Shown here: positions 1,262 through 9,825 of the stretch, piece after piece
How positions within the stretch are numbered: position 1 is the stretch's first letter
Layout: each line of letters begins with the position of its first letter
NCBI GenBank assembly: GCA_964636215.1
Contig: CAZWRJ010000003.1
Location: 6,743 to 70,742, forward strand
Direction: 5' to 3'
Length of the DNA: 64,000 bases
Origin: an uncultured Candidatus Saccharibacteria bacterium
GTDB taxonomy: Bacteria > Patescibacteriota > Saccharimonadia > Saccharimonadales > CAZJQT01
Program-made: the position numbers and the translations under genes
The notes under the pieces: model-generated
What the model was told of the DNA's origin: nothing
Databases searched by the model: none
Seen by the model: only the letters and a program-made list of their open reading frames with translations

Positions 1262-3547
1262 ATGGCGAAAAACCTAGTTATTGTTGAGAGCCCCGCCAAA
1301 GCCAAAACTATTGAGAAATTTTTAGGTAGCGCTTACACGGTTAAGAGCAGCTTTGGACATGTCCGTGACTTGCCTAAGAAGGGCCTCAATATTGATATTG
1401 AAAAACACTTTGAACCAACTTATGCGGTGTCGCCTGATAAGGAAAAGGTTATCAGGGAGCTGAAGACTGCAGCCAAGGGTGCCACTGTCTGGCTGGCAAG
1501 TGATGAAGACCGCGAAGGCGAGGCTATAGCCTGGCATCTTTGCGAAGCCCTGAATCTAAGTCCTAAGGTCACTAAACGAATTGTTTTCCATGAAATTACC
1601 AAAACGGCTATAGATCGAGCTGTAGCCAACCCCAGAACTGTCGATATGCGTTTAGTGGATGCTCAGCAAGCCCGACGAATTTTAGACCGTTTGGTAGGTT
1701 ACGAACTAAGTCCGGTGCTTTGGAAAAAGGTTAGAACCGGTCTGAGCGCCGGCAGGGTACAGTCGGTAGCTGTTCGTCTGATTGTCGAGAGAGAACGAGA
1801 AATCAAAGATTTTAAGGCTGAGGTTTCTTTCAAGGTAATCGGCAGTTTTAAGGCTGGCTCTGATGAGTTTGAGGCAGAGCTGGATAGTCGATTCAAAGAC
1901 GTCGCCAGGACCAAGGATTTTCTGAATGCGGCCGCTAAAGCCACTTTTACAGTTAAGGGTATTGAACAAAAGCCCGCTACTCGCAGCCCTGGTCCGCCGT
2001 TTACTACTAGTAGTCTGCAACAAGAAGCTGCTAGGCGACTGGGATTCAGCGTTAAACAAACTATGTCCTTAGCTCAGAGGCTTTATGAAAGTGGTCATAT
2101 TACCTATATGCGCACTGACAGTCTAACGCTGTCTAACCTAGCTCTAGATGCTGCAGCCAAATACATCGAGAAGACTTTTGGGGCAAACTATCATCAAACC
2201 AGACAATACAAAACTAAGGACGCTAGTGCTCAAGAAGCTCATGAAGCCATTCGACCGACACATTTCGATAAACTAAAGGCGGGTGGTGACGAGCAACAGA
2301 GTAAGTTATATGAGCTGGTTTGGCAGCGAACGGTAGCCAGCCAGATGGCTGATGCCAAGGTTGATCGTACTGAAATAGGCATAGTTGTTAGCAATCGCTC
2401 CGAGCTGTTCGTTGCTAAGGGCGAGGTGCTGCGTTTTGATGGCTTCTTCAAAGTCTATGGTGGTGGCAAAGACGACGTTATCTTGCCTACACTCAAAGAA
2501 GGTCAGAAGCTCGATCTCAAATTAATGACTGGGCTTCAGACTTTTAGCCGTCCACCAGCGCGTTATTCGGAAGCCAGCCTAGTTAAGAAGTTAGAAGAAT
2601 TAGGTATTGGCCGGCCTAGTACTTATGCGCCAACAATTTCAACTATTCAAACCCGCGGTTATGTCGAGAAAGGTGACTTGGAAGGTCAGACCCGACAAGT
2701 TACCAAATTAGAGTTAAAATCCGGGAAAATTAGCGAGTCCGAAACCACTGAGACTTATGGCGCTGACCGAAGTAAATTACTGCCTACACCAGTAGCTGAG
2801 ATAACAACTGACTTTTTGGTCAAATATTTCGGTTCAATACTGGACTATGATTTTACGGCCAAAGCAGAGCTAGATTTAGATGCCATAGCTGAGGGCAAGG
2901 AGTCTCGTGAACGCATGCTCAGTGATTTTTATAAACATTTTCATCCTTTAATAAAGAAGTCAGAGTCAGTTAGTCGAGAAGAGACCAGTCAAGCTAGACA
3001 TCTAGGCAAAGACCCAGGATCTGGTAAGCCAGTCATTGCTCGCTTTGGTCGCTACGGACCGATGTTACAGCGCGGTGAAACCGAGAGCGAAGAAAAGCCA
3101 GACTTCGCGCCATTGCCAGAAGGCACTACTCTGGAAGACGTTAATCTTTCTCAAGCACTAGAAATGTTCAAACTACCAAGGGTGGTGGGACAGACTGTTG
3201 ACGGACAAGAGATTCAGGCTAATATTGGACGATTCGGGCCTTATATCCAAGTCGACAAGCTTTTTGTGTCAATTAAACCTCAAGACCCTATGAAAATAAC
3301 CGAGAAAGAGGCTAGGACACTCTATAAGGCCAAGCTTAAGAAAGAAGCTGAAAAGCACATCCAGACTTTTGATAGTGGCCTACAGGTGCTGAATGGTCCT
3401 TATGGGCCATATGTTAGCGATGGCAAGCGCAATGCCCGTATACCTAAAGAACAAGATCCTAAGAAATTGACTGAAAAGGCGGCCCAAAAGCTGCTTGATG
3501 AAGCCCCAACGACTAAACGGTTTTTCCGTAAGAAAACTGCCTCTTGA
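1262..3547 (+). CDS. topA: DNA topoisomerase I
   Basis: N-terminal TOPRIM (LVIVESPAKAKTI...), RLVGYELSPVLWKK, and length typical of topoisomerase IA. Confidence 0.95.
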   Translation: MAKNLVIVESPAKAKTIEKFLGSAYTVKSSFGHVRDLPKKGLNIDIEKHFEPTYAVSPDKEKVIRELKTAAKGATVWLASDEDREGEAIAWHLCEALNLSPKVTKRIVFHEITKTAIDRAVANPRTVDMRLVDAQQARRILDRLVGYELSPVLWKKVRTGLSAGRVQSVAVRLIVEREREIKDFKAEVSFKVIGSFKAGSDEFEAELDSRFKDVARTKDFLNAAAKATFTVKGIEQKPATRSPGPPFTTSSLQQEAARRLGFSVKQTMSLAQRLYESGHITYMRTDSLTLSNLALDAAAKYIEKTFGANYHQTRQYKTKDASAQEAHEAIRPTHFDKLKAGGDEQQSKLYELVWQRTVASQMADAKVDRTEIGIVVSNRSELFVAKGEVLRFDGFFKVYGGGKDDVILPTLKEGQKLDLKLMTGLQTFSRPPARYSEASLVKKLEELGIGRPSTYAPTISTIQTRGYVEKGDLEGQTRQVTKLELKSGKISESETTETYGADRSKLLPTPVAEITTDFLVKYFGSILDYDFTAKAELDLDAIAEGKESRERMLSDFYKHFHPLIKKSESVSREETSQARHLGKDPGSGKPVIARFGRYGPMLQRGETESEEKPDFAPLPEGTTLEDVNLSQALEMFKLPRVVGQTVDGQEIQANIGRFGPYIQVDKLFVSIKPQDPMKITEKEARTLYKAKLKKEAEKHIQTFDSGLQVLNGPYGPYVSDGKRNARIPKEQDPKKLTEKAAQKLLDEAPTTKRFFRKKTAS

Positions 3548-3630
3548 CGATGTTTTAGAGTAGGTATATAACATTACCTAACATCGTGAGTATCAAGATT
3601 ATTCCGATGGCACTTTGACAGACAGGTAGC

Positions 3631-3680
3631 CATCAGATGAGATATGGGAGTTTTCAAGAACTTCCGCACCTCATCTGATG
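3631..3680. repeat. 11-bp perfect inverted repeat (catcagatgag / ctcatctgatg) with 28-nt spacer
   Basis: Seen directly in the sequence; it lies at the upstream edge of the high-GC island. Confidence 0.6.
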
Positions 3681-3699
3681 CAACGGAAGAGCGACAAAC

Positions 3700-4150
3700 A
3701 CGAGCATAAGACGGTCCCTCTCAAGGACTGGTGGGAAGCCACTGAGGATCAAGGTACACCGACGACAACGGGGGTTACCGCATGCACCGACAGCACACCG
3801 TCACGGCCACTCGCGCCGGCCCGGAGAACACGGGCTTCGCTGACACGGCCAAGTTCATCACGTCGACGGCCAAGAAGGTCTTCGCCACCAAGGTCACCTG
3901 AGCGTCGCCGACGCGTCCTCGTGACGACCCGCATTACCAACCACTAGGTACACCTGGAACCAGCATGATGGTGTGCCGACATGGTCCGTCCATAATCAGT
4001 GCAGCGGCCGGATGGCCAAAGCCTCGGGAGTAGGCCGTGAAGATGGCAGGCAGGTGGTCGTAGGCCAGTGACGGAACGGTTGCGTTTAGGGGCTGTACGC
4101 CCGCATCCCCAACGCCCACCCCGCGCTCAACCCTCAATCCTACCTGTCTG
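3700..4150. other. high-GC compositional island (~60-70 % GC against a mid-40s % background) with no full-length CDS
   Basis: Manual counts on two sub-stretches give 61 % and 72 % GC. Only short GC3-biased ORF fragments are present: the plus-strand 3782-3901 reads MHRQHTVTATRAGPENTGFADTAKFITSTAKKVFATKVT, and the minus-strand 3960-4075 reads ...LAYDHLPAIFTAYSRGFGHPAAALIMDGPCRH.... The track ORFs here are Arg/Pro/Ser low-complexity. Confidence 0.6.
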
Positions 4151-4154
4151 TCAT

Positions 4155-4209
4155 CTTCACTAAATGAGTGTGTACTCATTCTGATGAGTCTAAAAAGACG
4201 AAAGTGAAG
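4155..4209 (+). ncRNA. type III hammerhead self-cleaving ribozyme
   Basis: Stem III is CUUCAC/GUGAAG with U16.1 and A17 at the cleavage site; stem I is AAUGAGU-GUGU-ACUCAUU; the CUGAUGA core is intact. Stem II is GUCU-AAAA-AGAC with the G10.1-C11.1 pair, followed by GAAA and the stem III closure. Confidence 0.8.
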
Positions 4210-4330
4210 TCAAAAATATTGGTTTTCCACATCTTGCACGCCTGACAAGATATTTTATGGTGATATTTCTACACCATGTAATAGGCAAAGGTGTCTATTT
4301 CGTGCTAAAATAAAGTAGATCAAAAAGGTG

Positions 4331-4358
4331 TTGACTTTTTGTACATTTGTTTTACAAT
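4331..4358 (+). promoter_or_regulatory. sigma70-like promoter (TTGACT, 16-nt spacer, TACAAT)
   Basis: Near-consensus hexamers lie about 48 nt upstream of the ATG at 4406. Confidence 0.55.
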
Positions 4359-4405
4359 AGAGTTATCATTTGACTGTTATTAGAGAGCAGGGAAGGATAG
4401 ACCAG

Positions 4406-5443
4406 ATGGCCGAAACGGCTACAGCAGCATTACAGCTGGAAAAAATTGTTACAGACATACTCCGTACCATCGACAGAGAAAGGGAACGCGAGATTATTTC
4501 ACGTCGCTTCGGTTTATTCGATCGAAAGGAAACCCTAGAACAAATCGGGGAATTGTTAGGTATTACCCGTGAACGCGTCCGACAGCTGGAAAAAGCAGTA
4601 GTCGCCCGCCTGAAAGCTCAAGCTGACAGCGGTCAATTGCCACACCTTGGCGCAGTGCAAGACGCTTTTATTGAGAAGCTTGGCCAAATGGGCAGTGTCG
4701 CCCGAGTGGCTGACTTGAGTTCTAAATTCGCTAAGGAAAACAGTCGTACCGATCAATCTCGCACCTCTTTCCTAGCTCAACTATGCCCCAAACTAGTCAC
4801 CGTTGACGAGAACGATTATTATTACCACTCCACCGGCATTAAGGGCCTGCATGACGAGAAAGCTCTAAAACAACTGGTGGAAAAGTTGATTGAAGCTATT
4901 AAAGCGCTTGGTGAACCAGCCAAGATTGACGAAATTGCTGCTAAGGCCGGGCTTGACTCTAACCGTCACGCTGCTGCTTTGGCTAGTATTAGTAAACAGC
5001 TGGCAACTCTTAATGGTCGCTGGGGCTTAGTTAAGTGGCCAATGGTTAATCCTAAGAATATTCGTGACAAAATCTACGTCATACTTAAAGAACACGGCAA
5101 ACACATGCACTTCAATGAAATTGCCCAGGCTATTAAGAAAAGTGACTTTAAGCGTAACAATGTGACTACCCAGGCCATTCACAACGAACTCATTAAAGAC
5201 AAGCGTTTCGTACTAATCGGCCGGGGCATTTACGCTCTGAAGGAATGGGGTTACGAAAAGGGCACCGTAGCCGACATAATTACTGAGGTTCTTAAGAAGT
5301 CCAAACAACCAATGCACCGTGACGAAATTGTTAAGCAAGTGCTTAAGAGCCGCTACGTCAAAGAAACGACTATTTTGTTAAATCTACAAGGCAAGCCACA
5401 GTTCAAACGCGTTGCCAAAGCCACCTACGCCCTAGCAGAGTAA
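4406..5443 (+). CDS. sigma-70 region 4 HTH plus tandem HARE-HTH domain protein
   Basis: The N-terminus ETLEQIGELLGITRERVRQLEKAVVARLK is a sigma region 4 HTH. The C-terminus has two HARE-HTH-like units (...FVLIGRGIYALKEW / ...RVAKATYALAE). The track start at 4370 is a TTG; the ATG at 4406 follows GGGAAGGA. Confidence 0.7.
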   Translation: MAETATAALQLEKIVTDILRTIDREREREIISRRFGLFDRKETLEQIGELLGITRERVRQLEKAVVARLKAQADSGQLPHLGAVQDAFIEKLGQMGSVARVADLSSKFAKENSRTDQSRTSFLAQLCPKLVTVDENDYYYHSTGIKGLHDEKALKQLVEKLIEAIKALGEPAKIDEIAAKAGLDSNRHAAALASISKQLATLNGRWGLVKWPMVNPKNIRDKIYVILKEHGKHMHFNEIAQAIKKSDFKRNNVTTQAIHNELIKDKRFVLIGRGIYALKEWGYEKGTVADIITEVLKKSKQPMHRDEIVKQVLKSRYVKETTILLNLQGKPQFKRVAKATYALAE

Positions 5444-6018: not shown

Positions 6019-6275
6019 AACACTGTTTTAATCAGTCTGTACAAAATACGAACATTTAGGTAGCTAGAGAGCTGGGTGGAAGTAAGCGAGTTATAAGCAA
6101 ACTTGGAGAGAGATAGGACGTAGAGGGCAGGAAAATAAAAAAACAAAAACGTAAAACAAAAGTGAAAATAACCGACATAAATCGGGCAGTAGAGCACCAA
6201 CATTGTCCATAGACAAGATGTCGCACAATGTATATTTTACGACTCTATAATAGCGGTTGGAGATGAAGCCTATTA

Positions 6276-6298
6276 CCCCTACTGCAGGGGAGTTTTAT
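6276..6298 (+). terminator. hairpin cccct-actgc-agggg followed by agttttat
   Basis: A stem-loop plus U-run lies in the convergent intergenic region. Confidence 0.35.
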
Positions 6299-6434
6299 CA
6301 CGCCTAGTCTATAAACTAGTTCTATACTGCAGTTTGCTATCTCCATATTAAACCTTGTTTGTCCTGTGCTCGCCTAAGAACGTTGTACGAACTATCAACT
6401 AATACTTTTCCACAGCCATGCCCGTGAAAACATT

Positions 6435-6530
6435 TGCTTTTTCACGTGTTTCATATCGATATTTATTTCTTTCCCTACTACCCTTGCTCCAGCTATTATT
6501 TGACAATTGCCTTTTCACGTGTGTTCATAT
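6435..6530. repeat. two copies of tgcYttttcacgtgt(g)ttcatat (CACGTG core) about 73 bp apart
   Basis: A direct repeat seen at 6435-6456 and 6508-6530 in a 580-bp non-coding gap. Confidence 0.5.
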
Positions 6531-6599
6531 AGTTTTTTTCAAATCCAGTGTTTATAGTAATATGAACAAAAAACGAACTAGCTAGGGCAGCGTAGGGGT

Positions 6600-7490
6600 T
6601 TATTTGTAAAAAACTTTCTCTTGGACTCTTAGGTCTATATAGCTACTGGGAATAGGTCCTTGTTTATTCAGATGCTTGATAGCTGCCAAATAACTCCCTA
6701 CTGCTTGCTGGACATCACTTTCGATATTAAATTTTAGAAAGTAGTCTTTGCCGCCGAGATAAACGTCGACTTCATTAGCCGTTTTGGCTGGAAGCTCTAA
6801 CTTTTTTACATCTTGTTTGACCAACTTTAATTCAGCAGATAATCGAGTTATAAACGTTACTTCGCTAGAAGGCAGATTAGTATCCCCGACCTTTATCTCG
6901 CTACCGGTAGCATCCTCGACAATAGGAGTATTAGCTAACTTGGCAGTCTGTAGATCAGTAGTAGTCGCAAGCACTTTGCCGCCTTGATCTATATAATAAT
7001 TGGTCCCGGAGCTGTCTAGTATCAGAGCCGGTACGGCAGGAGTAAGTCGTACTGTTGGGCGTCTGCCAATCAGGGGTAATTCAACGTCGACTGCTGCTAA
7101 TTCTGGGAAACGGTTTTTAATATCATCCGTTATGGCTCTTGAGTTAATAGTTAGTTTGCTGCGACTAGTCAGAGAATTTGACCACAGCTGTTCAATCTGT
7201 TGCTGATAATCATTAAGATTGCGGTGAACACTACCGGGTCTATTCTCAATAATAATCCTTGGTTGTGTATTTAGTATTAAAGAGTAGCCAATAGCGATTA
7301 TTAGGCCTCCGGCTGCAAGATAGCTTGGCAGTTTATGTAACCAGCTTCGTTTCTGGGGAGTAATCGTCTGATTACGTCCAAGGTTGTCGCTGCTCGTGCT
7401 GCGTTTGGAACGATAGTCGTAAACTGGGGCGTCTGTGCTAAGTTTTTGCGGCTGGCGCCCTTTAAACAGGCTTTTGCGACTAAGTTTCAT
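6600..7490 (-). CDS. ftsQ: cell division protein FtsQ/DivIB-like
   Basis: It has a basic N-terminus, one TM segment and a POTRA-like periplasmic region, and lies directly downstream of murG in the dcw cluster. Confidence 0.65.
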   Translation of the reverse strand: MKLSRKSLFKGRQPQKLSTDAPVYDYRSKRSTSSDNLGRNQTITPQKRSWLHKLPSYLAAGGLIIAIGYSLILNTQPRIIIENRPGSVHRNLNDYQQQIEQLWSNSLTSRSKLTINSRAITDDIKNRFPELAAVDVELPLIGRRPTVRLTPAVPALILDSSGTNYYIDQGGKVLATTTDLQTAKLANTPIVEDATGSEIKVGDTNLPSSEVTFITRLSAELKLVKQDVKKLELPAKTANEVDVYLGGKDYFLKFNIESDVQQAVGSYLAAIKHLNKQGPIPSSYIDLRVQEKVFYK

Positions 7491-7499
7491 ATAGAAAGG

Positions 7500-8666
7500 T
7501 TACCGTAGCTTTTCATCGAGTAATATTTGAGCCACCCGATGTGCTGCATCAGGAATAACTAGTTTCTTTAGGTTTTCGGCAAGCCTTTTTCTCAGATCTT
7601 TGTCATCTACCAATTTAGCAAGCTGAGCAAAGAGGCCTTGTTGTGAATCGTACAACTCGTTACCACCTACCACTATGGCAGCTCCTTGCTCTTTCAGCCG
7701 GTCAGCATTTTTTAGTTGATGGCCACCAGTTAAATATGCACTAGGGACCGCGATGCAGGCTTTGCCTTGGATACCAATCTCTGCCAAGGTATTAGCGCTA
7801 GCTCTAGCTACCACGATGTCAGCCGCCCCCATGTATTGATACATGGGATTTAGAAATTCCAACACTTTCAGCCTAGGATGGGTTTTATTCTCGTAGGCGC
7901 CTGCCTTACCCTTGCCCACCTGATGAACAACATTTACGTCAGTGTGCTCGTCCAAAAAAGAGCCGATACCGTTAGCAACAACCTCATTCAGCTCTCTTGC
8001 CCCGGAACTCCCACCTGTAATTAACACTATTAAACCGTCAGTGGGTAATGCTAGTTTGTGCTTGAATTCTAGCTCTGTTTCATTATCTACGTACTGGTAA
8101 TTCTGTTCGACTAACACACCGACAGCTTCCACCTTATCCGGTGGATAGGAGTAAAATTCCGGCGGCAACGCGGTAGCATGAAGGTTGGCCCAACGGCTAA
8201 CAATGCGATTGGCGAGTCCTGGTAAGGCATCTGAATCATGGGTAACTATTGGGATATGTCTGGTGGCCGCAGCTAGGCCGATAGGTACGCCGACGTAACC
8301 ACCTTTCAAAAAGACAATGTTAGGCTTCAGCTTACCGAGCAACCGCCAGGCTTGCACAAGTCCGATAGGCACTAAGAAAAAGTCTCTGATGTTTTTTAAG
8401 ATAGTCGGTAAATCAAATAATCTTTTGAGCCAAGATTCACCGTGGTAACGTCTGAATTTGCCAGCAAAAATACTGTAGCTTTCATCAATGTCCGGATTAT
8501 CTCTGGTAAGCTCAGCAAATTTACCATGCCTTTCACCAACATAGATCGTTTGACACTGACTATCAAGCCGTTTTAATTCATGGGCGACGGCTAGGATAGG
8601 CGTAATGTGGCCGCCGGTCCCGCCGCCAGTCAACAGCACTTTCACTGCTTTCCCCCTCTGGTTCAT
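7500..8666 (-). CDS. murG: undecaprenyldiphospho-muramoylpentapeptide beta-N-acetylglucosaminyltransferase
   Basis: It carries VLLTGGGTGGHITP and the MurG fold. A GTG at 8645 preceded by AGGGGG is a possible true start. Confidence 0.9.
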   Translation of the reverse strand: MNQRGKAVKVLLTGGGTGGHITPILAVAHELKRLDSQCQTIYVGERHGKFAELTRDNPDIDESYSIFAGKFRRYHGESWLKRLFDLPTILKNIRDFFLVPIGLVQAWRLLGKLKPNIVFLKGGYVGVPIGLAAATRHIPIVTHDSDALPGLANRIVSRWANLHATALPPEFYSYPPDKVEAVGVLVEQNYQYVDNETELEFKHKLALPTDGLIVLITGGSSGARELNEVVANGIGSFLDEHTDVNVVHQVGKGKAGAYENKTHPRLKVLEFLNPMYQYMGAADIVVARASANTLAEIGIQGKACIAVPSAYLTGGHQLKNADRLKEQGAAIVVGGNELYDSQQGLFAQLAKLVDDKDLRKRLAENLKKLVIPDAAHRVAQILLDEKLR

Positions 8667-9825
8667 TATTTACCTCAAAAGTGGTGTGCCGTGAAATCTG
8701 AAACACCAACCCCAGTGCTGCTAAAACGAAAATAATACTAGTCCCTCCGTAACTTATAAACGGTAAGGTTATGCCCTTTAGTGGTAGTAAACCGAGCATA
8801 GCTCCGGTATTTATGATGGTTTGAGTGCTAAGCCAGGCCAAAACGCCTGCTACGATTAGCCTTGAAGCTCTGTCTGGGGCGCGCTCCATAATGCTTTTTA
8901 ATCTGATAAAGAAAGCAGTGAATAACCCAAGGAGTAAGCTTACGCCGAAGAATCCAAATTTTTCGGCAACTATGGCGAATATTGAATCGTTGGCAGCCTC
9001 TGGTAGATAGCCATAAGCCTCCACGCTATGTCCAAGGCCCTTACCAAACAAACCACCTGAGCCAACTGAAATCAAAGCCTGACAAGCCTGATAACCGCTA
9101 TTTAGGCAATCCTTTTCGGGATGCACAAAATTGAGCACACGTTCACGGCGATACCCAGGACCAGCAATAAGTAGTAGTACACCAGCTGCAGCAATAACTG
9201 CTCCTACTTGAAGGACCCTTTTCATTGGCAAGCCGGCAATAAAACTCATAGCCCCGATCATTACAGCTAGTACTGCTGCCGAACCAAAATCTTTCTGAGC
9301 AACTGCCACTACTATTCCCAAAACCCCTAGTAATATTAAGATTGGTTTTAGCGTACGATGAGAATCATTGATTATCCCCTGCTGAACCTTTTCGGCTAAG
9401 AAAAAAGCCAAACAAATAACCAGGGCGAATTTTACCAACTCGACAGACTGTAACGATAAGCCGCCGAAGCGAATCCAGCGGTGGGCCGGATAATCGACGG
9501 TTGTAGGTAAAATTAAAGCCACGGCGGTGGCTATCCCGGCCATCATGATCAAGGGACGCTGCAGACGTTTCCAGGTTGATAATGGGATACTAGCTACAAT
9601 AGTGAAAGCCACCAGTCCGATGGCAATAGCTATCAGTTGTTTTATAACAAAATAGTTGCTGTTAACTTGTTTCTGAATGGCCAGCCCGGGACTTATGGAA
9701 AAGATAACAATCAGCCCAATTACTAACAGCATGACCCCTATTAATACCAGTGTGTAATCTGGGCGGTGACGTCTTTGGCCGCTTCTATCGATATACTGTG
9801 GCTGGCGTCGTTTGGTATAGCTCAT
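8578..9825 (-). CDS. ftsW: peptidoglycan glycosyltransferase FtsW (SEDS family)
   Basis: It is a multi-TM SEDS protein. The ATG at 9825 forms an ATGA overlap with the mraY stop, and the extra 31 aa in the track ORF are not FtsW-like. Confidence 0.85.
   Translation of the reverse strand: MSYTKRRQPQYIDRSGQRRHRPDYTLVLIGVMLLVIGLIVIFSISPGLAIQKQVNSNYFVIKQLIAIAIGLVAFTIVASIPLSTWKRLQRPLIMMAGIATAVALILPTTVDYPAHRWIRFGGLSLQSVELVKFALVICLAFFLAEKVQQGIINDSHRTLKPILILLGVLGIVVAVAQKDFGSAAVLAVMIGAMSFIAGLPMKRVLQVGAVIAAAGVLLLIAGPGYRRERVLNFVHPEKDCLNSGYQACQALISVGSGGLFGKGLGHSVEAYGYLPEAANDSIFAIVAEKFGFFGVSLLLGLFTAFFIRLKSIMERAPDRASRLIVAGVLAWLSTQTIINTGAMLGLLPLKGITLPFISYGGTSIIFVLAALGLVFQISRHTTFEVNNEPEGESSESAVDWRRDRRPHYAYPSRRP

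What the first reader, a model, noticed from the sequence alone, without database searches (positions are those of the whole stretch)
4155..4209. Canonical type III hammerhead ribozyme downstream of topA
A 55-nt plus-strand motif folds exactly as a hammerhead. Stem III (CUUCAC/GUGAAG) is followed by U16.1 and A17 at the cleavage site. Stem I is a 7-bp helix (AAUGAGU/ACUCAUU) closed by a GUGU loop. The catalytic core CUGAUGA is intact. Stem II (GUCU/AGAC, AAAA loop) begins with the conserved G10.1-C11.1 pair, and the GAAA strand then closes stem III. All invariant core nucleotides are present and all three helices are perfect, which is very unlikely by chance. Self-cleavage would release the upstream (high-GC) RNA with a 2',3'-cyclic phosphate end at 4162. 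Hammerheads in bacteria are usually tied to phage or mobile DNA or to uncharacterised small genes; this genomic context has none of these.
Basis: partly seen in the sequence, partly recalled or inferred. Interest (0 to 1): 0.85.

Follow-up and report, generated by a model that had tools for sequence, protein, structure and literature searches.

The report
Hammerhead ribozyme capping an inserted RNA unit
The 55-nt motif is very likely a real self-cleaving hammerhead ribozyme, but it is the last module of a small, GC-rich, foreign-looking RNA unit inserted after topA in a Saccharibacteria genome, so it is a new example of a known ribozyme class in an unusually tidy setting.

Summary
The motif at 4155-4209(+) is exactly as described. 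It matches Rfam Hammerhead_3 end to end at 41.7 bits, below the 48.5 gathering score (E about 1e-7 locally), and its minimum-energy fold is the three-way junction. Ten related hammerheads (six Saccharibacteria, four phage) exist. In a nine-sequence alignment, 15 of 17 pairs covary and only the U16.1-A15.1 and G10.1-C11.1 pairs are invariant.

The ribozyme is the 3' end of a roughly 0.65-kb insert that runs from the topA stop codon to the last hammerhead base pair. Close relatives lack the insert. Two other Saccharibacteria (L020, L108) carry a homologous unit at the same site.

The unit has its own promoter, a 14-bp helix joining its 5' region to the tail before the ribozyme, a sequence-conserved hairpin, and a short Met-His ORF with GC3 of 0.92. 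It also has a 60-68% GC body and an internal "anti-tail" that competes for hammerhead stem III.

Most likely the ribozyme sets the RNA's 3' end in place of a terminator, and the competing helices gate cleavage or lock the product. Cleavage itself is untested. New member of a known kind; moderate interest.

The parts
3544..3572 (+). Promoter-like site of the unit: TTGACG (3544-3549), 17 nt, TATAAC (3567-3572). The -35 hexamer overlaps the topA stop codon (3545-3547). Predicted start about 3580.
   Evidence: Read. L020 and L108 both have TTGACA-N16-TATAAT at the same place. The consensus scan did not list the window's site because its -10 hexamer ends in C. The assignment is inferred.
3616..3629 (+). 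5' strand of the closing helix (TGACAGACAGGTAG)
   Evidence: It is a perfect 14-nt complement of 4140-4153 (I3). It is present in the global MFE. 0 of 200 shuffled tails pair as well. L020 and L108 keep the pairing with a different sequence.
3631..3680 (+). Conserved 5' hairpin ATCAGATGAGAT...CACCTCATCTGATG. The lower stem is conserved in sequence and the upper stem covaries. Role unknown.
   Evidence: I1. 12 + 14 nt are identical in L020; L108 differs at two positions at the edges. Exact-pattern scans found no further relatives.
3770..3901 (+). SD-like GGGGG (3770-3774) and a 39-codon ORF at 3782-3901, MHRQHTVTATRAGPENTGFADTAKFITSTAKKVFATKVT
   Evidence: GC1/2/3 is 0.47-0.49/0.53-0.54/0.92, against GC3 of 0.32-0.47 in three host genes. 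Codon periodicity is reached by 0 of 1000 shuffles. L020 and L108 have an SD, 7 nt, a start codon and CAC at the equivalent place, with ORFs of 11 and 22 codons and GC3 of 1.0 and 0.90. There is no homologue in 1.84 billion representatives, Pfam or PHROGs.
3690..4139 (+). GC-rich (60-68%) structured body of the unit. It includes the ORF and the anti-tail.
   Evidence: for composition. Fold z = -5.65. No Rfam family. No blastn match in phages or plasmids. No sequence similarity to the L020 body.
4035..4057 (+). Anti-tail: an internal segment that pairs with 4140-4161 and so competes with both the closing helix and hammerhead stem III
   Evidence: 19-21 bp including two G-U pairs, so it works only on the + strand RNA (I2, 37). 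dG is -38.6 kcal/mol and 0 of 200 shuffles match it. This conformer lies 1.2 kcal/mol above the MFE. Analogous segments exist in L020 (2/200) and L108 (0/200).
4140..4153 (+). 3' strand of the closing helix (CTACCTGTCTGTCA). Together with 4155-4162 it forms the 3' tail of the cleaved RNA.
4155..4209 (+). Type III hammerhead ribozyme. The predicted scissile bond lies between A4162 and A4163.

Best explanation
The motif is a genuine type III hammerhead. It is the 3'-terminal module of a self-contained RNA unit of about 0.65 kb (3544-4209), compositionally foreign, inserted between the topA stop codon and the resident promoter region of the next gene in a Saccharibacteria chromosome. Proposed mechanism, step by step. 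(1) RNA polymerase starts at the unit's own promoter near 3580, and possibly also reads through from topA, since no terminator lies in between. (2) It transcribes a 5' leader, the 5' strand of a closing helix, a conserved hairpin, a short Met-His ORF and a very GC-rich structured body. (3) When the 3' tail (4140-4161) emerges it has two exclusive partners. If it pairs with the 5' strand (3616-3629), the stretch CUUCACU stays free, the hammerhead folds, and it cleaves after A4162. If it pairs with the internal anti-tail (4035-4057), stem III cannot form and cleavage is blocked. (4) Cleavage yields an RNA of about 580 nt that ends in a 2',3'-cyclic phosphate. Its 3' tail is then held in one of the two helices, which protects the end and disfavours religation. 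The downstream fragment starts with a 5'-OH. So the ribozyme replaces a terminator and insulates the neighbouring gene, which has its own conserved promoters at 4282-4311 and 4331-4358. Shown by computation: the motif, its covariation, the insert boundaries, both helices and their significance, the foreign composition, and the ORF periodicity. Inferred: promoter use, actual cleavage, the switch behaviour, end protection, and any role of the peptide or of the body.
For: Ribozyme: the core is complete and Rfam aligns end to end. The MFE equals the hammerhead both alone and inside the 634-nt precursor. In nine homologues, 91% of cells are paired against 61.5% in shuffles and 26-43% in slid controls. 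15 of 17 pairs show double changes, and the only invariant pairs are U16.1-A15.1 and G10.1-C11.1. Insert: only 4212-4360 is conserved in relatives. Empty sites run from the topA stop straight to TTTTCCACA, while occupied sites run from the stop to the unit's promoter and from the last stem III pair to TTATCCACA. The unit is present in the window, L020 and L108. It is absent from L109-L119, L105, L106 and six GTDB loci. Architecture: closing helix 0/200, 0/200, 1/200 and 2/200 in the window, L020, L040 and L061, and it is in every global MFE. Anti-tail: 0/200, 2/200 and 0/200. Foreignness: 60-68% GC against about 44% overall and 30-35% in the neighbouring intergenic DNA, and GC3 of 0.92. No intrinsic terminator in 3400-4500. 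Precedent: bacterial hammerheads flank genes or short gene blocks and may cut long transcripts into gene-length RNAs (PMC3088659).
Against: No experiment shows cleavage. The Rfam score is below gathering. The window's -10 hexamer is TATAAC and was not listed by the consensus scan. Only three units of this type were found, and two of them are close relatives. L020's minus strand folds as well as its plus strand (z -9.1 against -9.0), so the strand assignment rests on G-U pairs, the promoter and ribozyme orientation. The short ORFs differ in length and sequence, so a peptide function is doubtful. From my own knowledge: a CUA triplet is slower than GUC in minimal hammerheads, and a 7-bp stem I closed by a tetraloop may not reach loop II, so high-speed activity is unproven. 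L026 and most phage relatives lack the closing helix, so it is not a general hammerhead property.
Confidence: 0.7

Rival explanations
1. Ribozyme-processed small-protein mRNA. The unit is simply an accessory gene cassette whose product is the 39-aa Met-His peptide. The GC-rich remainder is a 3' UTR and the hammerhead only trims the mRNA, as proposed for prophage operons. This overlaps the best explanation but makes the peptide the functional product.
For: There is significant codon periodicity and an SD-like site. L020 and L108 have a very strong SD (AAGGAGGTGATC/T) and a Met-His start at the equivalent position. Sister cassettes in L026, L040 and L061 clearly encode proteins, and in L040 and L061 the closing helix covers or abuts the SD. 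Phage L104 shows a gene bracketed by two hammerheads with paired ends.
Against: The ORFs are 39, 22 and 11 codons long with no conserved peptide sequence. There is no homologue anywhere. About 75% of the unit lies outside the ORF yet stays 60-68% GC and highly structured in three genomes. In the window the closing helix does not touch the SD.
Confidence: 0.3
2. Circular or viroid-like RNA. The closing helix brings the two ends together so that a ligase (RtcB-type) circularises the cleaved RNA, as in retrozymes and viroid-like RNAs.
For: The 5' and 3' regions are held together by a 14-bp helix next to the cleavage site. The anti-tail resembles the inactive rod conformers of viroid-like RNAs. 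The size (0.6-0.9 kb) and type III topology resemble retrozymes (PMC5680766 abstract). Phage L104 has two ribozymes and paired ends.
Against: There is only one self-cleaving motif. No second hammerhead or other Rfam ribozyme lies in 3500-4420 or anywhere in the window, so no 5'-OH end is generated. A primary transcript carries a 5' triphosphate. The 5' strand of the helix lies about 35 nt inside the predicted transcript. The unit is a single copy, not a tandem repeat. Perreault et al. looked for circles from bacterial hammerheads and found none.
Confidence: 0.07
3. DNA-level element. The 14-bp inverted repeats are terminal repeats of a MITE-like transposon (or the conserved palindrome is a recombinase or repressor site), and the hammerhead-like sequence is incidental.
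For: There are perfect 14-bp inverted repeats with conserved outer TGACA/TGTCA. The unit shows presence/absence polymorphism at a hotspot. The sequence-conserved palindrome ATCAGATGAG/CTCATCTGAT could be a protein-binding site.
Against: The insert boundaries lie outside the repeats, so the promoter and the hammerhead are part of the insert. No target-site duplication is seen. The anti-tail helices need G-U pairs and so work only as + strand RNA. The hammerhead core is invariant and its stems covary across 9-10 sequences. There is no transposase or integrase nearby, and no second copy in the window.
Confidence: 0.05
4. Chance or decayed motif with no activity.
For: The Rfam score is below the gathering threshold. 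Loops are minimal. The CUA triplet is suboptimal (own knowledge).
Against: E is about 1e-7. Covariation is strong and the core is invariant in homologues at the same and neighbouring loci. The motif is retained at the exact insert boundary in three genomes.
Confidence: 0.04

Closest known systems
Hammerhead ribozyme, type III (Rfam RF00008, clan CL00010)
   Same: It has the full catalytic core CUGAUGA...GAAA, an NUH site (CUA), the G10.1-C11.1 and A15.1-U16.1 pairs, and three helices with stem III open. The helices covary in relatives.
   Different: It scores 41.7 bits, below the 48.5 gathering cut-off. It is a compact form: a 6-7 bp stem I with a 4-6 nt loop that starts with UG, and a 4-bp stem II with an A-rich tetraloop. 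The host is a Saccharibacteria (CPR) genome, and I found no paper linking hammerheads to that group.
Hammerheads flanking genes or short gene blocks in prophages and bacteria (Perreault et al. 2011, PMC3088659)
   Same: The ribozyme sits at the end of an accessory unit that carries uncharacterised small ORFs, and the proposed role is cutting transcripts to unit length. Sister cassettes in L026, L040, L061 and phage L104 fit this picture.
   Different: There is a single ribozyme at the 3' end only. No prophage or integrase was found in the sampled window genes. The cargo is mostly non-coding and 60-68% GC. As far as I know, a closing helix plus a competing anti-tail has not been described for these.
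hok mRNA tac/fbi fold-back (type I toxin-antitoxin; PMC9841398)
   Same: A long-range 5'-3' helix closes the RNA, with an alternative pairing available for the 3' end. In L040 and L061 the helix covers or abuts the SD of a small membrane-protein ORF.
   Different: In hok the 3' end is set by a terminator and trimmed by exonucleases, not by a ribozyme. In the window the helix does not sequester the SD, the peptide is not hydrophobic, and no antisense RNA was sought.
Retrozymes and viroid-like circular RNAs with type III hammerheads (PMC5680766, PMC7761336)
   Same: A 0.6-1 kb, highly structured RNA with a type III hammerhead and an alternative fold that hides ribozyme strands.
   Different: Those need two cleavage sites per unit or tandem repeats and become circular. 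Here there is one ribozyme, a single DNA copy and its own promoter.

Membership tests
Hammerhead ribozyme type III (RF00008) | Invariant core C3 U4 G5 A6 N7 G8 A9 and G12 A13 A14 | tested here: met
   CUGAUGA at 4181-4187 and GAA at 4200-4202. These positions align to the Rfam consensus core and are invariant in the five-sequence alignment A1 apart from N7.
Hammerhead ribozyme type III (RF00008) | Cleavage triplet N-U-H (H is not G), with A15.1-U16.1 closing stem III and G10.1-C11.1 opening stem II | tested here: met
   C4160-U4161-A4162, with U4161-A4203 and G4188-C4199. These two pairs are the only invariant pairs among nine homologues.
Hammerhead ribozyme type III (RF00008) | Three helices at the junction, with stems I and II capped and stem III open | tested here: met
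   The MFE of the 55-mer is exactly this fold. It is also present in the MFE of the 634-nt precursor.
Hammerhead ribozyme type III (RF00008) | Helices supported by compensatory changes in homologues | tested here: met
   15 of 17 pairs have double changes. 91.2% of cells are paired against 61.5% in shuffles (0 of 500 reach it) and 26-43% in slid controls. Caveat: the alignment was fitted to the model.
Hammerhead ribozyme type III (RF00008) | Score at or above Rfam's gathering threshold (48.5 bits) | tested here: not met
   41.7 bits, and no hit in the default scan. This is a curation cut-off, not a biochemical criterion. E = 5e-8.
Hammerhead ribozyme type III (RF00008) | Loop I - loop II tertiary contact needed for fast cleavage at physiological Mg2+ | tested here: inconclusive
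   Columns 15-16 (UG), which open loop I in four of the five A1 sequences and fall in stem I's internal loop in L020, and three A's in loop II are invariant. L100 and L101 show the same. No structure or kinetics could be computed.
Hammerhead ribozyme type III (RF00008) | Mg2+-dependent site-specific self-cleavage giving 2',3'-cyclic phosphate and 5'-OH ends | not testable with these tools
   This needs in vitro transcription and cleavage assays, or cyclic-phosphate RNA-seq.
Prophage-type hammerhead-flanked gene blocks (Perreault 2011) | Two or more hammerheads bracketing a gene or short block, usually near integrase or prophage genes | tested here: not met
   There is one hammerhead only in 64 kb. 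The 26 window ORFs scanned, including those flanking the unit, are housekeeping or have no Pfam match. Not all window genes were scanned.
Retrozyme / viroid-like circular RNA | Two self-cleavage sites per unit (or tandem units) that yield ligatable 5'-OH and cyclic-phosphate ends | tested here: not met
   No second ribozyme of any Rfam class lies in 3500-4420. There are no direct repeats.
hok-like type I toxin mRNA with fold-back inhibition | A 5'-3' long-range helix that sequesters the SD of a small hydrophobic toxin ORF, plus a cis-antisense RNA | tested here: not met
   The long-range helix is present. In the window it lies about 140 nt upstream of the SD, and the peptide is hydrophilic. 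No antisense RNA was searched for. The feature is partly met in L040 and L061.
MITE / TIR DNA transposon | Element bounded by terminal inverted repeats with a target-site duplication | tested here: not met
   The insert boundaries lie outside the 14-bp repeats and no duplication is present.

The most novel reading that the evidence does not exclude
The window, L020 and L108 could define a previously undescribed class of self-contained, hammerhead-capped RNA cassettes in Saccharibacteria. Each has its own promoter, a 5'-3' closing helix, a sequence-conserved 5' hairpin, a micro-ORF, a GC-rich structured body kept at 60-68% GC in a 44-47% GC genome without primary-sequence conservation, and a bistable tail/anti-tail switch that gates ribozyme cleavage. 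That would make it a natural conformationally regulated hammerhead producing a stable, end-locked RNA. A further, much less likely extension follows from the actinobacteria-like composition and from Saccharibacteria living on Actinobacteria: the RNA or its cargo might derive from, or act on, the host.
Probability: 0.3. Interest if true: 0.65.

Novelty: new member of a known kind. Interest (0 to 1): 0.42.

Why it matters
What bacterial hammerheads do is still unknown. Most known examples sit in complicated prophage operons. Here a single ribozyme sits at the exact 3' boundary of a short unit that carries its own promoter, and closely related genomes provide empty sites for comparison. Two statistically supported competing helices predict ON and OFF conformers. 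This gives a compact system, testable by mutation, for asking whether a natural hammerhead acts as a terminator substitute or insulator and whether it is conformationally gated. It also extends hammerheads to the CPR phylum Saccharibacteria. Finally, it shows that the Rfam gathering score misses this compact subtype: 4 of the 6 hammerheads included in permissive Rfam scans scored 33.5-41.7 bits, below 48.5, and 2 (L020, L026) were not reported at all; L061 and L100 were covered only by gathering-score or E<=0.001 scans, which reported nothing for them.

Tried and rejected
1. Known large RNA. Rfam finds nothing at gathering or permissive thresholds for the GC block. There is no tRNA or tmRNA in the window.

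2. Second ribozyme at the 5' end. The conserved hairpin contains CUGAUG(A), but no stem II, GAAA or NUH site can be drawn, and Rfam finds nothing. Rejected.

3. Host- or phage-derived DNA. blastn of the block against phages and plasmids finds nothing. tblastn of the periodic frame against phages finds nothing. The HMMER search of 1.84 billion representatives gave one hit, a filamin-repeat protein whose score sums six identical weak repeats, which I judge spurious. A search against actinobacterial genomes was not possible with the remaining caps.

4. More family members by exact pattern of the 5' hairpin. Viral contigs gave 0 hits, and the 7 metagenome hits are unrelated hairpins.

5. The window's own contig. 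Exact look-ups of topA, the DUF5680 protein and P0002 all failed.

6. Shared cargo. There is no protein similarity among the cargos of the five cassettes, and no Pfam or PHROG family.

7. Conserved element downstream of the ribozyme as an RNA or terminator. RNAalifold predicts 0 pairs. It is a promoter region that starts with a DnaA-box-like site, and such boxes are not enriched in the window.

8. My first constrained-fold energies used a stem I coordinate that was off by one. I do not rely on them, only on the unconstrained MFE and the anti-tail constraint.

9. Fold z-score as a strand discriminator failed for L020.

Full report
**Observation.** The 55 nt at 4155-4209(+) read CUUCACU/A/AAUGAGU-GUGU-ACUCAUU/CUGAUGA/GUCU-AAAA-AGAC/GAA/AGUGAAG. 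This is a complete type III hammerhead. Stem III is 4155-4161 with 4203-4209, including U16.1-A15.1. A17 is at 4162. Stem I has 7 bp and a GUGU loop. The core is intact. Stem II has 4 bp, opens with G10.1-C11.1 and has an AAAA loop. The unconstrained MFE of the 55-mer is exactly this fold (-14.4 kcal/mol, z -2.9). Rfam's default scan of the window returns nothing. With permissive filters Hammerhead_3 aligns over the full model at 41.7 bits, with E=5e-8 on 301 nt and 1.6e-7 on 921 nt. That is below the 48.5-bit gathering score, because loop II is short and loop I carries an insertion.

**Organism and context.** topA homologues place the window in Saccharibacteria/Saccharimonadales, with the best identity at 73%. 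The window is about 44% GC. topA ends at 3547. The next gene (Sigma70_r4 + HARE-HTH) starts at 4406. About 500 nt of the 830-nt gap is 60-68% GC and ends at the hammerhead. The 26 window ORFs scanned are housekeeping genes or lack a Pfam match. There is no tRNA or tmRNA in the window.

**The ribozyme belongs to an insert.** Across 33 Saccharibacteria loci only window 4212-4360 is conserved. In many loci this element follows topA directly. In others the gap holds unrelated accessory genes in either orientation, so the site is a hotspot. L020 has the same arrangement as the window: a GC-rich block followed by a hammerhead. L108, whose downstream protein is 90% identical to L020's, also has it. 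The 88% and 86% relatives (L109-L119) and L105/L106 do not. Junction alignments show the boundaries. Empty sites run from the topA stop to TTTTCCACAATTTT. Occupied sites run from the topA stop to the unit's promoter, and from the last base pair of stem III to TTATCCACAATTTT, with 1-2 nt between in L020 and L108 and 14 extra nt in the window. No target duplication is visible. The resident element downstream has no conserved RNA structure. It holds a DnaA-box-like site and conserved promoters.

**Anatomy of the unit, shared by the window, L020 and L108.**
- Promoter. L020 and L108 have TTGACA-N16-TATAAT, and the window has TTGACG-N17-TATAAC, which overlaps the topA stop. The consensus scan did not list the window's site.
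- Closing helix. 3616-3629 pairs with 4140-4153, 14 perfect bp. L020 and L108 keep it with a different sequence. It appears in every global MFE. It is significant against shuffled tails: 0/200 in the window and 0/200 in L020.
- Hairpin at 3631-3680. Its lower stem ATCAGATGAG/CTCATCTGAT is conserved in sequence and its upper stem covaries. Its role is unknown.
- Short ORF after an SD, always starting Met-His. It has 39 codons in the window (3782-3901), 11 in L020 and 22 in L108, with GC3 of 0.92, 1.0 and 0.90, against 0.32-0.47 for three host genes in the window. Periodicity in the window is reached by 0 of 1000 shuffles. The peptides are not conserved and have no homologues.
- GC-rich body with very stable predicted folding: z -5.7, -9.0 and -5.6. 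L020 and L108 share about 70% identity and local hairpins in the 5' half but are unalignable in the 3' half, which still stays 60-68% GC. The window's body is unrelated in sequence.
- Anti-tail at 4035-4057. It pairs with 4140-4161 over 19-21 bp including two G-U pairs, so it works only as + strand RNA. It competes with both the closing helix and stem III. It is significant in all three units: 0/200, 2/200 and 0/200. In the window precursor the MFE (-241.1 kcal/mol) has the closing helix plus the full hammerhead, and the anti-tail conformer lies 1.2 kcal/mol higher.
- The hammerhead itself.

**Is the ribozyme under selection?** A model built from five Saccharibacteria hammerheads finds only those five in 691 kb. 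There is none elsewhere in the window and none in the Bacteroidota loci. It then finds L108 independently at 55.8 bits and phage examples: L100 at 61 bits, plus L101, L104 and L093. On nine sequences, 91.2% of cells are paired, against 61.5% in shuffles and 26-43% in slid controls. 15 of 17 pairs show double changes. Only U16.1-A15.1 and G10.1-C11.1 never vary. The alignment was fitted to the model, which inflates pairing somewhat, but the pattern is what a functional hammerhead predicts. Columns 15-16 (UG, opening loop I in most sequences) and three A's in loop II are invariant, which suggests a tertiary contact. This is an inference.

**Sister cassettes.** In L026, L040 and L061 a hammerhead of the same compact type ends a GC3-enriched cassette of small uncharacterised membrane proteins upstream of topA. 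In L040 and L061 a 15-16 bp helix joins the tail before the ribozyme to the 5' UTR, at or next to the first SD. They have no anti-tail. In phage contig L104 one gene is bracketed by a type I and a type III hammerhead, and its 5' UTR pairs with its 3' tail. This matches the published picture of bacterial hammerheads flanking genes or short gene blocks (PMC3088659).

**Mechanism.** I think the hammerhead most likely defines the 3' end of the unit's RNA in place of a terminator; none is predicted in 3400-4500. Cleavage would leave an RNA of about 580 nt with a cyclic-phosphate end held in a helix. It would also separate that RNA from the neighbouring gene, which has its own conserved promoters. 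The two competing partners of the tail predict ON and OFF conformers. The closest mechanistic analogy for the end pairing is the tac/fbi fold-back of hok mRNA (PMC9841398). The window does not meet that system's defining features. Circularisation is unlikely because there is only one ribozyme. A DNA transposon reading is unlikely because the insert boundaries lie outside the repeats and the helices need G-U pairs.

**Novelty and verdict.** The ribozyme is a new member of a known class in a lineage for which I found no published hammerhead. The surrounding design (single terminal ribozyme, closing helix, anti-tail, GC-rich body) may be a new variant, but it rests on three units, two of them closely related. 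Cleavage, promoter use, the switch and any function of the RNA or peptide remain untested.

Noticed in passing
window 4212-4360; L109 2117-2292; L110 2165-2350: The element that follows topA in all Saccharibacteria loci starts with a consensus DnaA box (TTATCCACA; TTTTCCACA at window 4223-4231). It also holds a conserved extended -10 promoter (TGCTAnAAT, window about 4301-4311) upstream of the sigma-r4/HARE-HTH gene. There is no conserved RNA structure, and DnaA boxes are not enriched in the window (7 found, 7 expected).
   Followed up: partly
topA to next-gene gap in L001, L002, L007, L009, L012, L014, L016, L019, L107: The same intergenic site holds different, unrelated accessory genes (about 140-320 aa, in either orientation) in different Saccharibacteria species. 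It is an integration or variability hotspot.
   Followed up: partly
L104 8394-9130 (viral contig IMGVR_UViG_3300029288_003002): This is a phage operon in which one gene is bracketed by a type I hammerhead (cleavage near 8447) and a type III hammerhead (9074-9130). The 5' UTR (about 8477-8500) pairs with the tail before the 3' ribozyme (2 of 200 shuffles as good). That geometry would suit end-joining of the excised RNA.
   Followed up: partly
L100 about 6566-7700 (minus strand) and L101 about 3100-4623: In two low-GC phage contigs a compact type III hammerhead (61 and 41.8 bits with model R1) follows about 1 kb of ORF-poor, GC-richer sequence that includes a TG/CA-rich low-complexity stretch. 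Rfam finds no known large RNA there.
   Followed up: partly
L061 1275-1357: A c-di-GMP-II riboswitch (RF01786, 54.0 bits, gathering 53.5) in a Patescibacteria MAG contig.
   Followed up: no
L108 2550-2563; L020 8470-8483: The SD in front of the short Met-His ORF is unusually long. In L108, AAGGAGGTGATC is, from my knowledge of the 16S rRNA 3' end (GAUCACCUCCUU), a 12-nt perfect complement to it. L020 has AAGGAGGTGATT.
   Followed up: no
L020, L026, L040, L101, window: Rfam's Hammerhead_3 gathering score misses this compact subtype. In permissive scans, 41.7, 40.3 and 33.5 bits were reported for the window, L040 and L101. L020 and L026 were not reported at all at E<=0.01, and L061 and L100 were not reported at E<=0.01 and E<=0.001 respectively.
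   Followed up: partly
window 6020-6600: A region of about 580 nt that is AT-rich (about 39% GC) and free of long ORFs, between the DUF5680 gene and the ftsQ-like gene. It contains a second TTTTCCACA box at 6406-6414.
   Followed up: no
window 4172-4304: A weak Rfam match to the Enterococcus sRNA EF3314_EF3315 (21.8 bits against a gathering score of 100, E 0.005-0.015) overlaps the hammerhead 3' half and the leader. I judge it chance.
   Followed up: no
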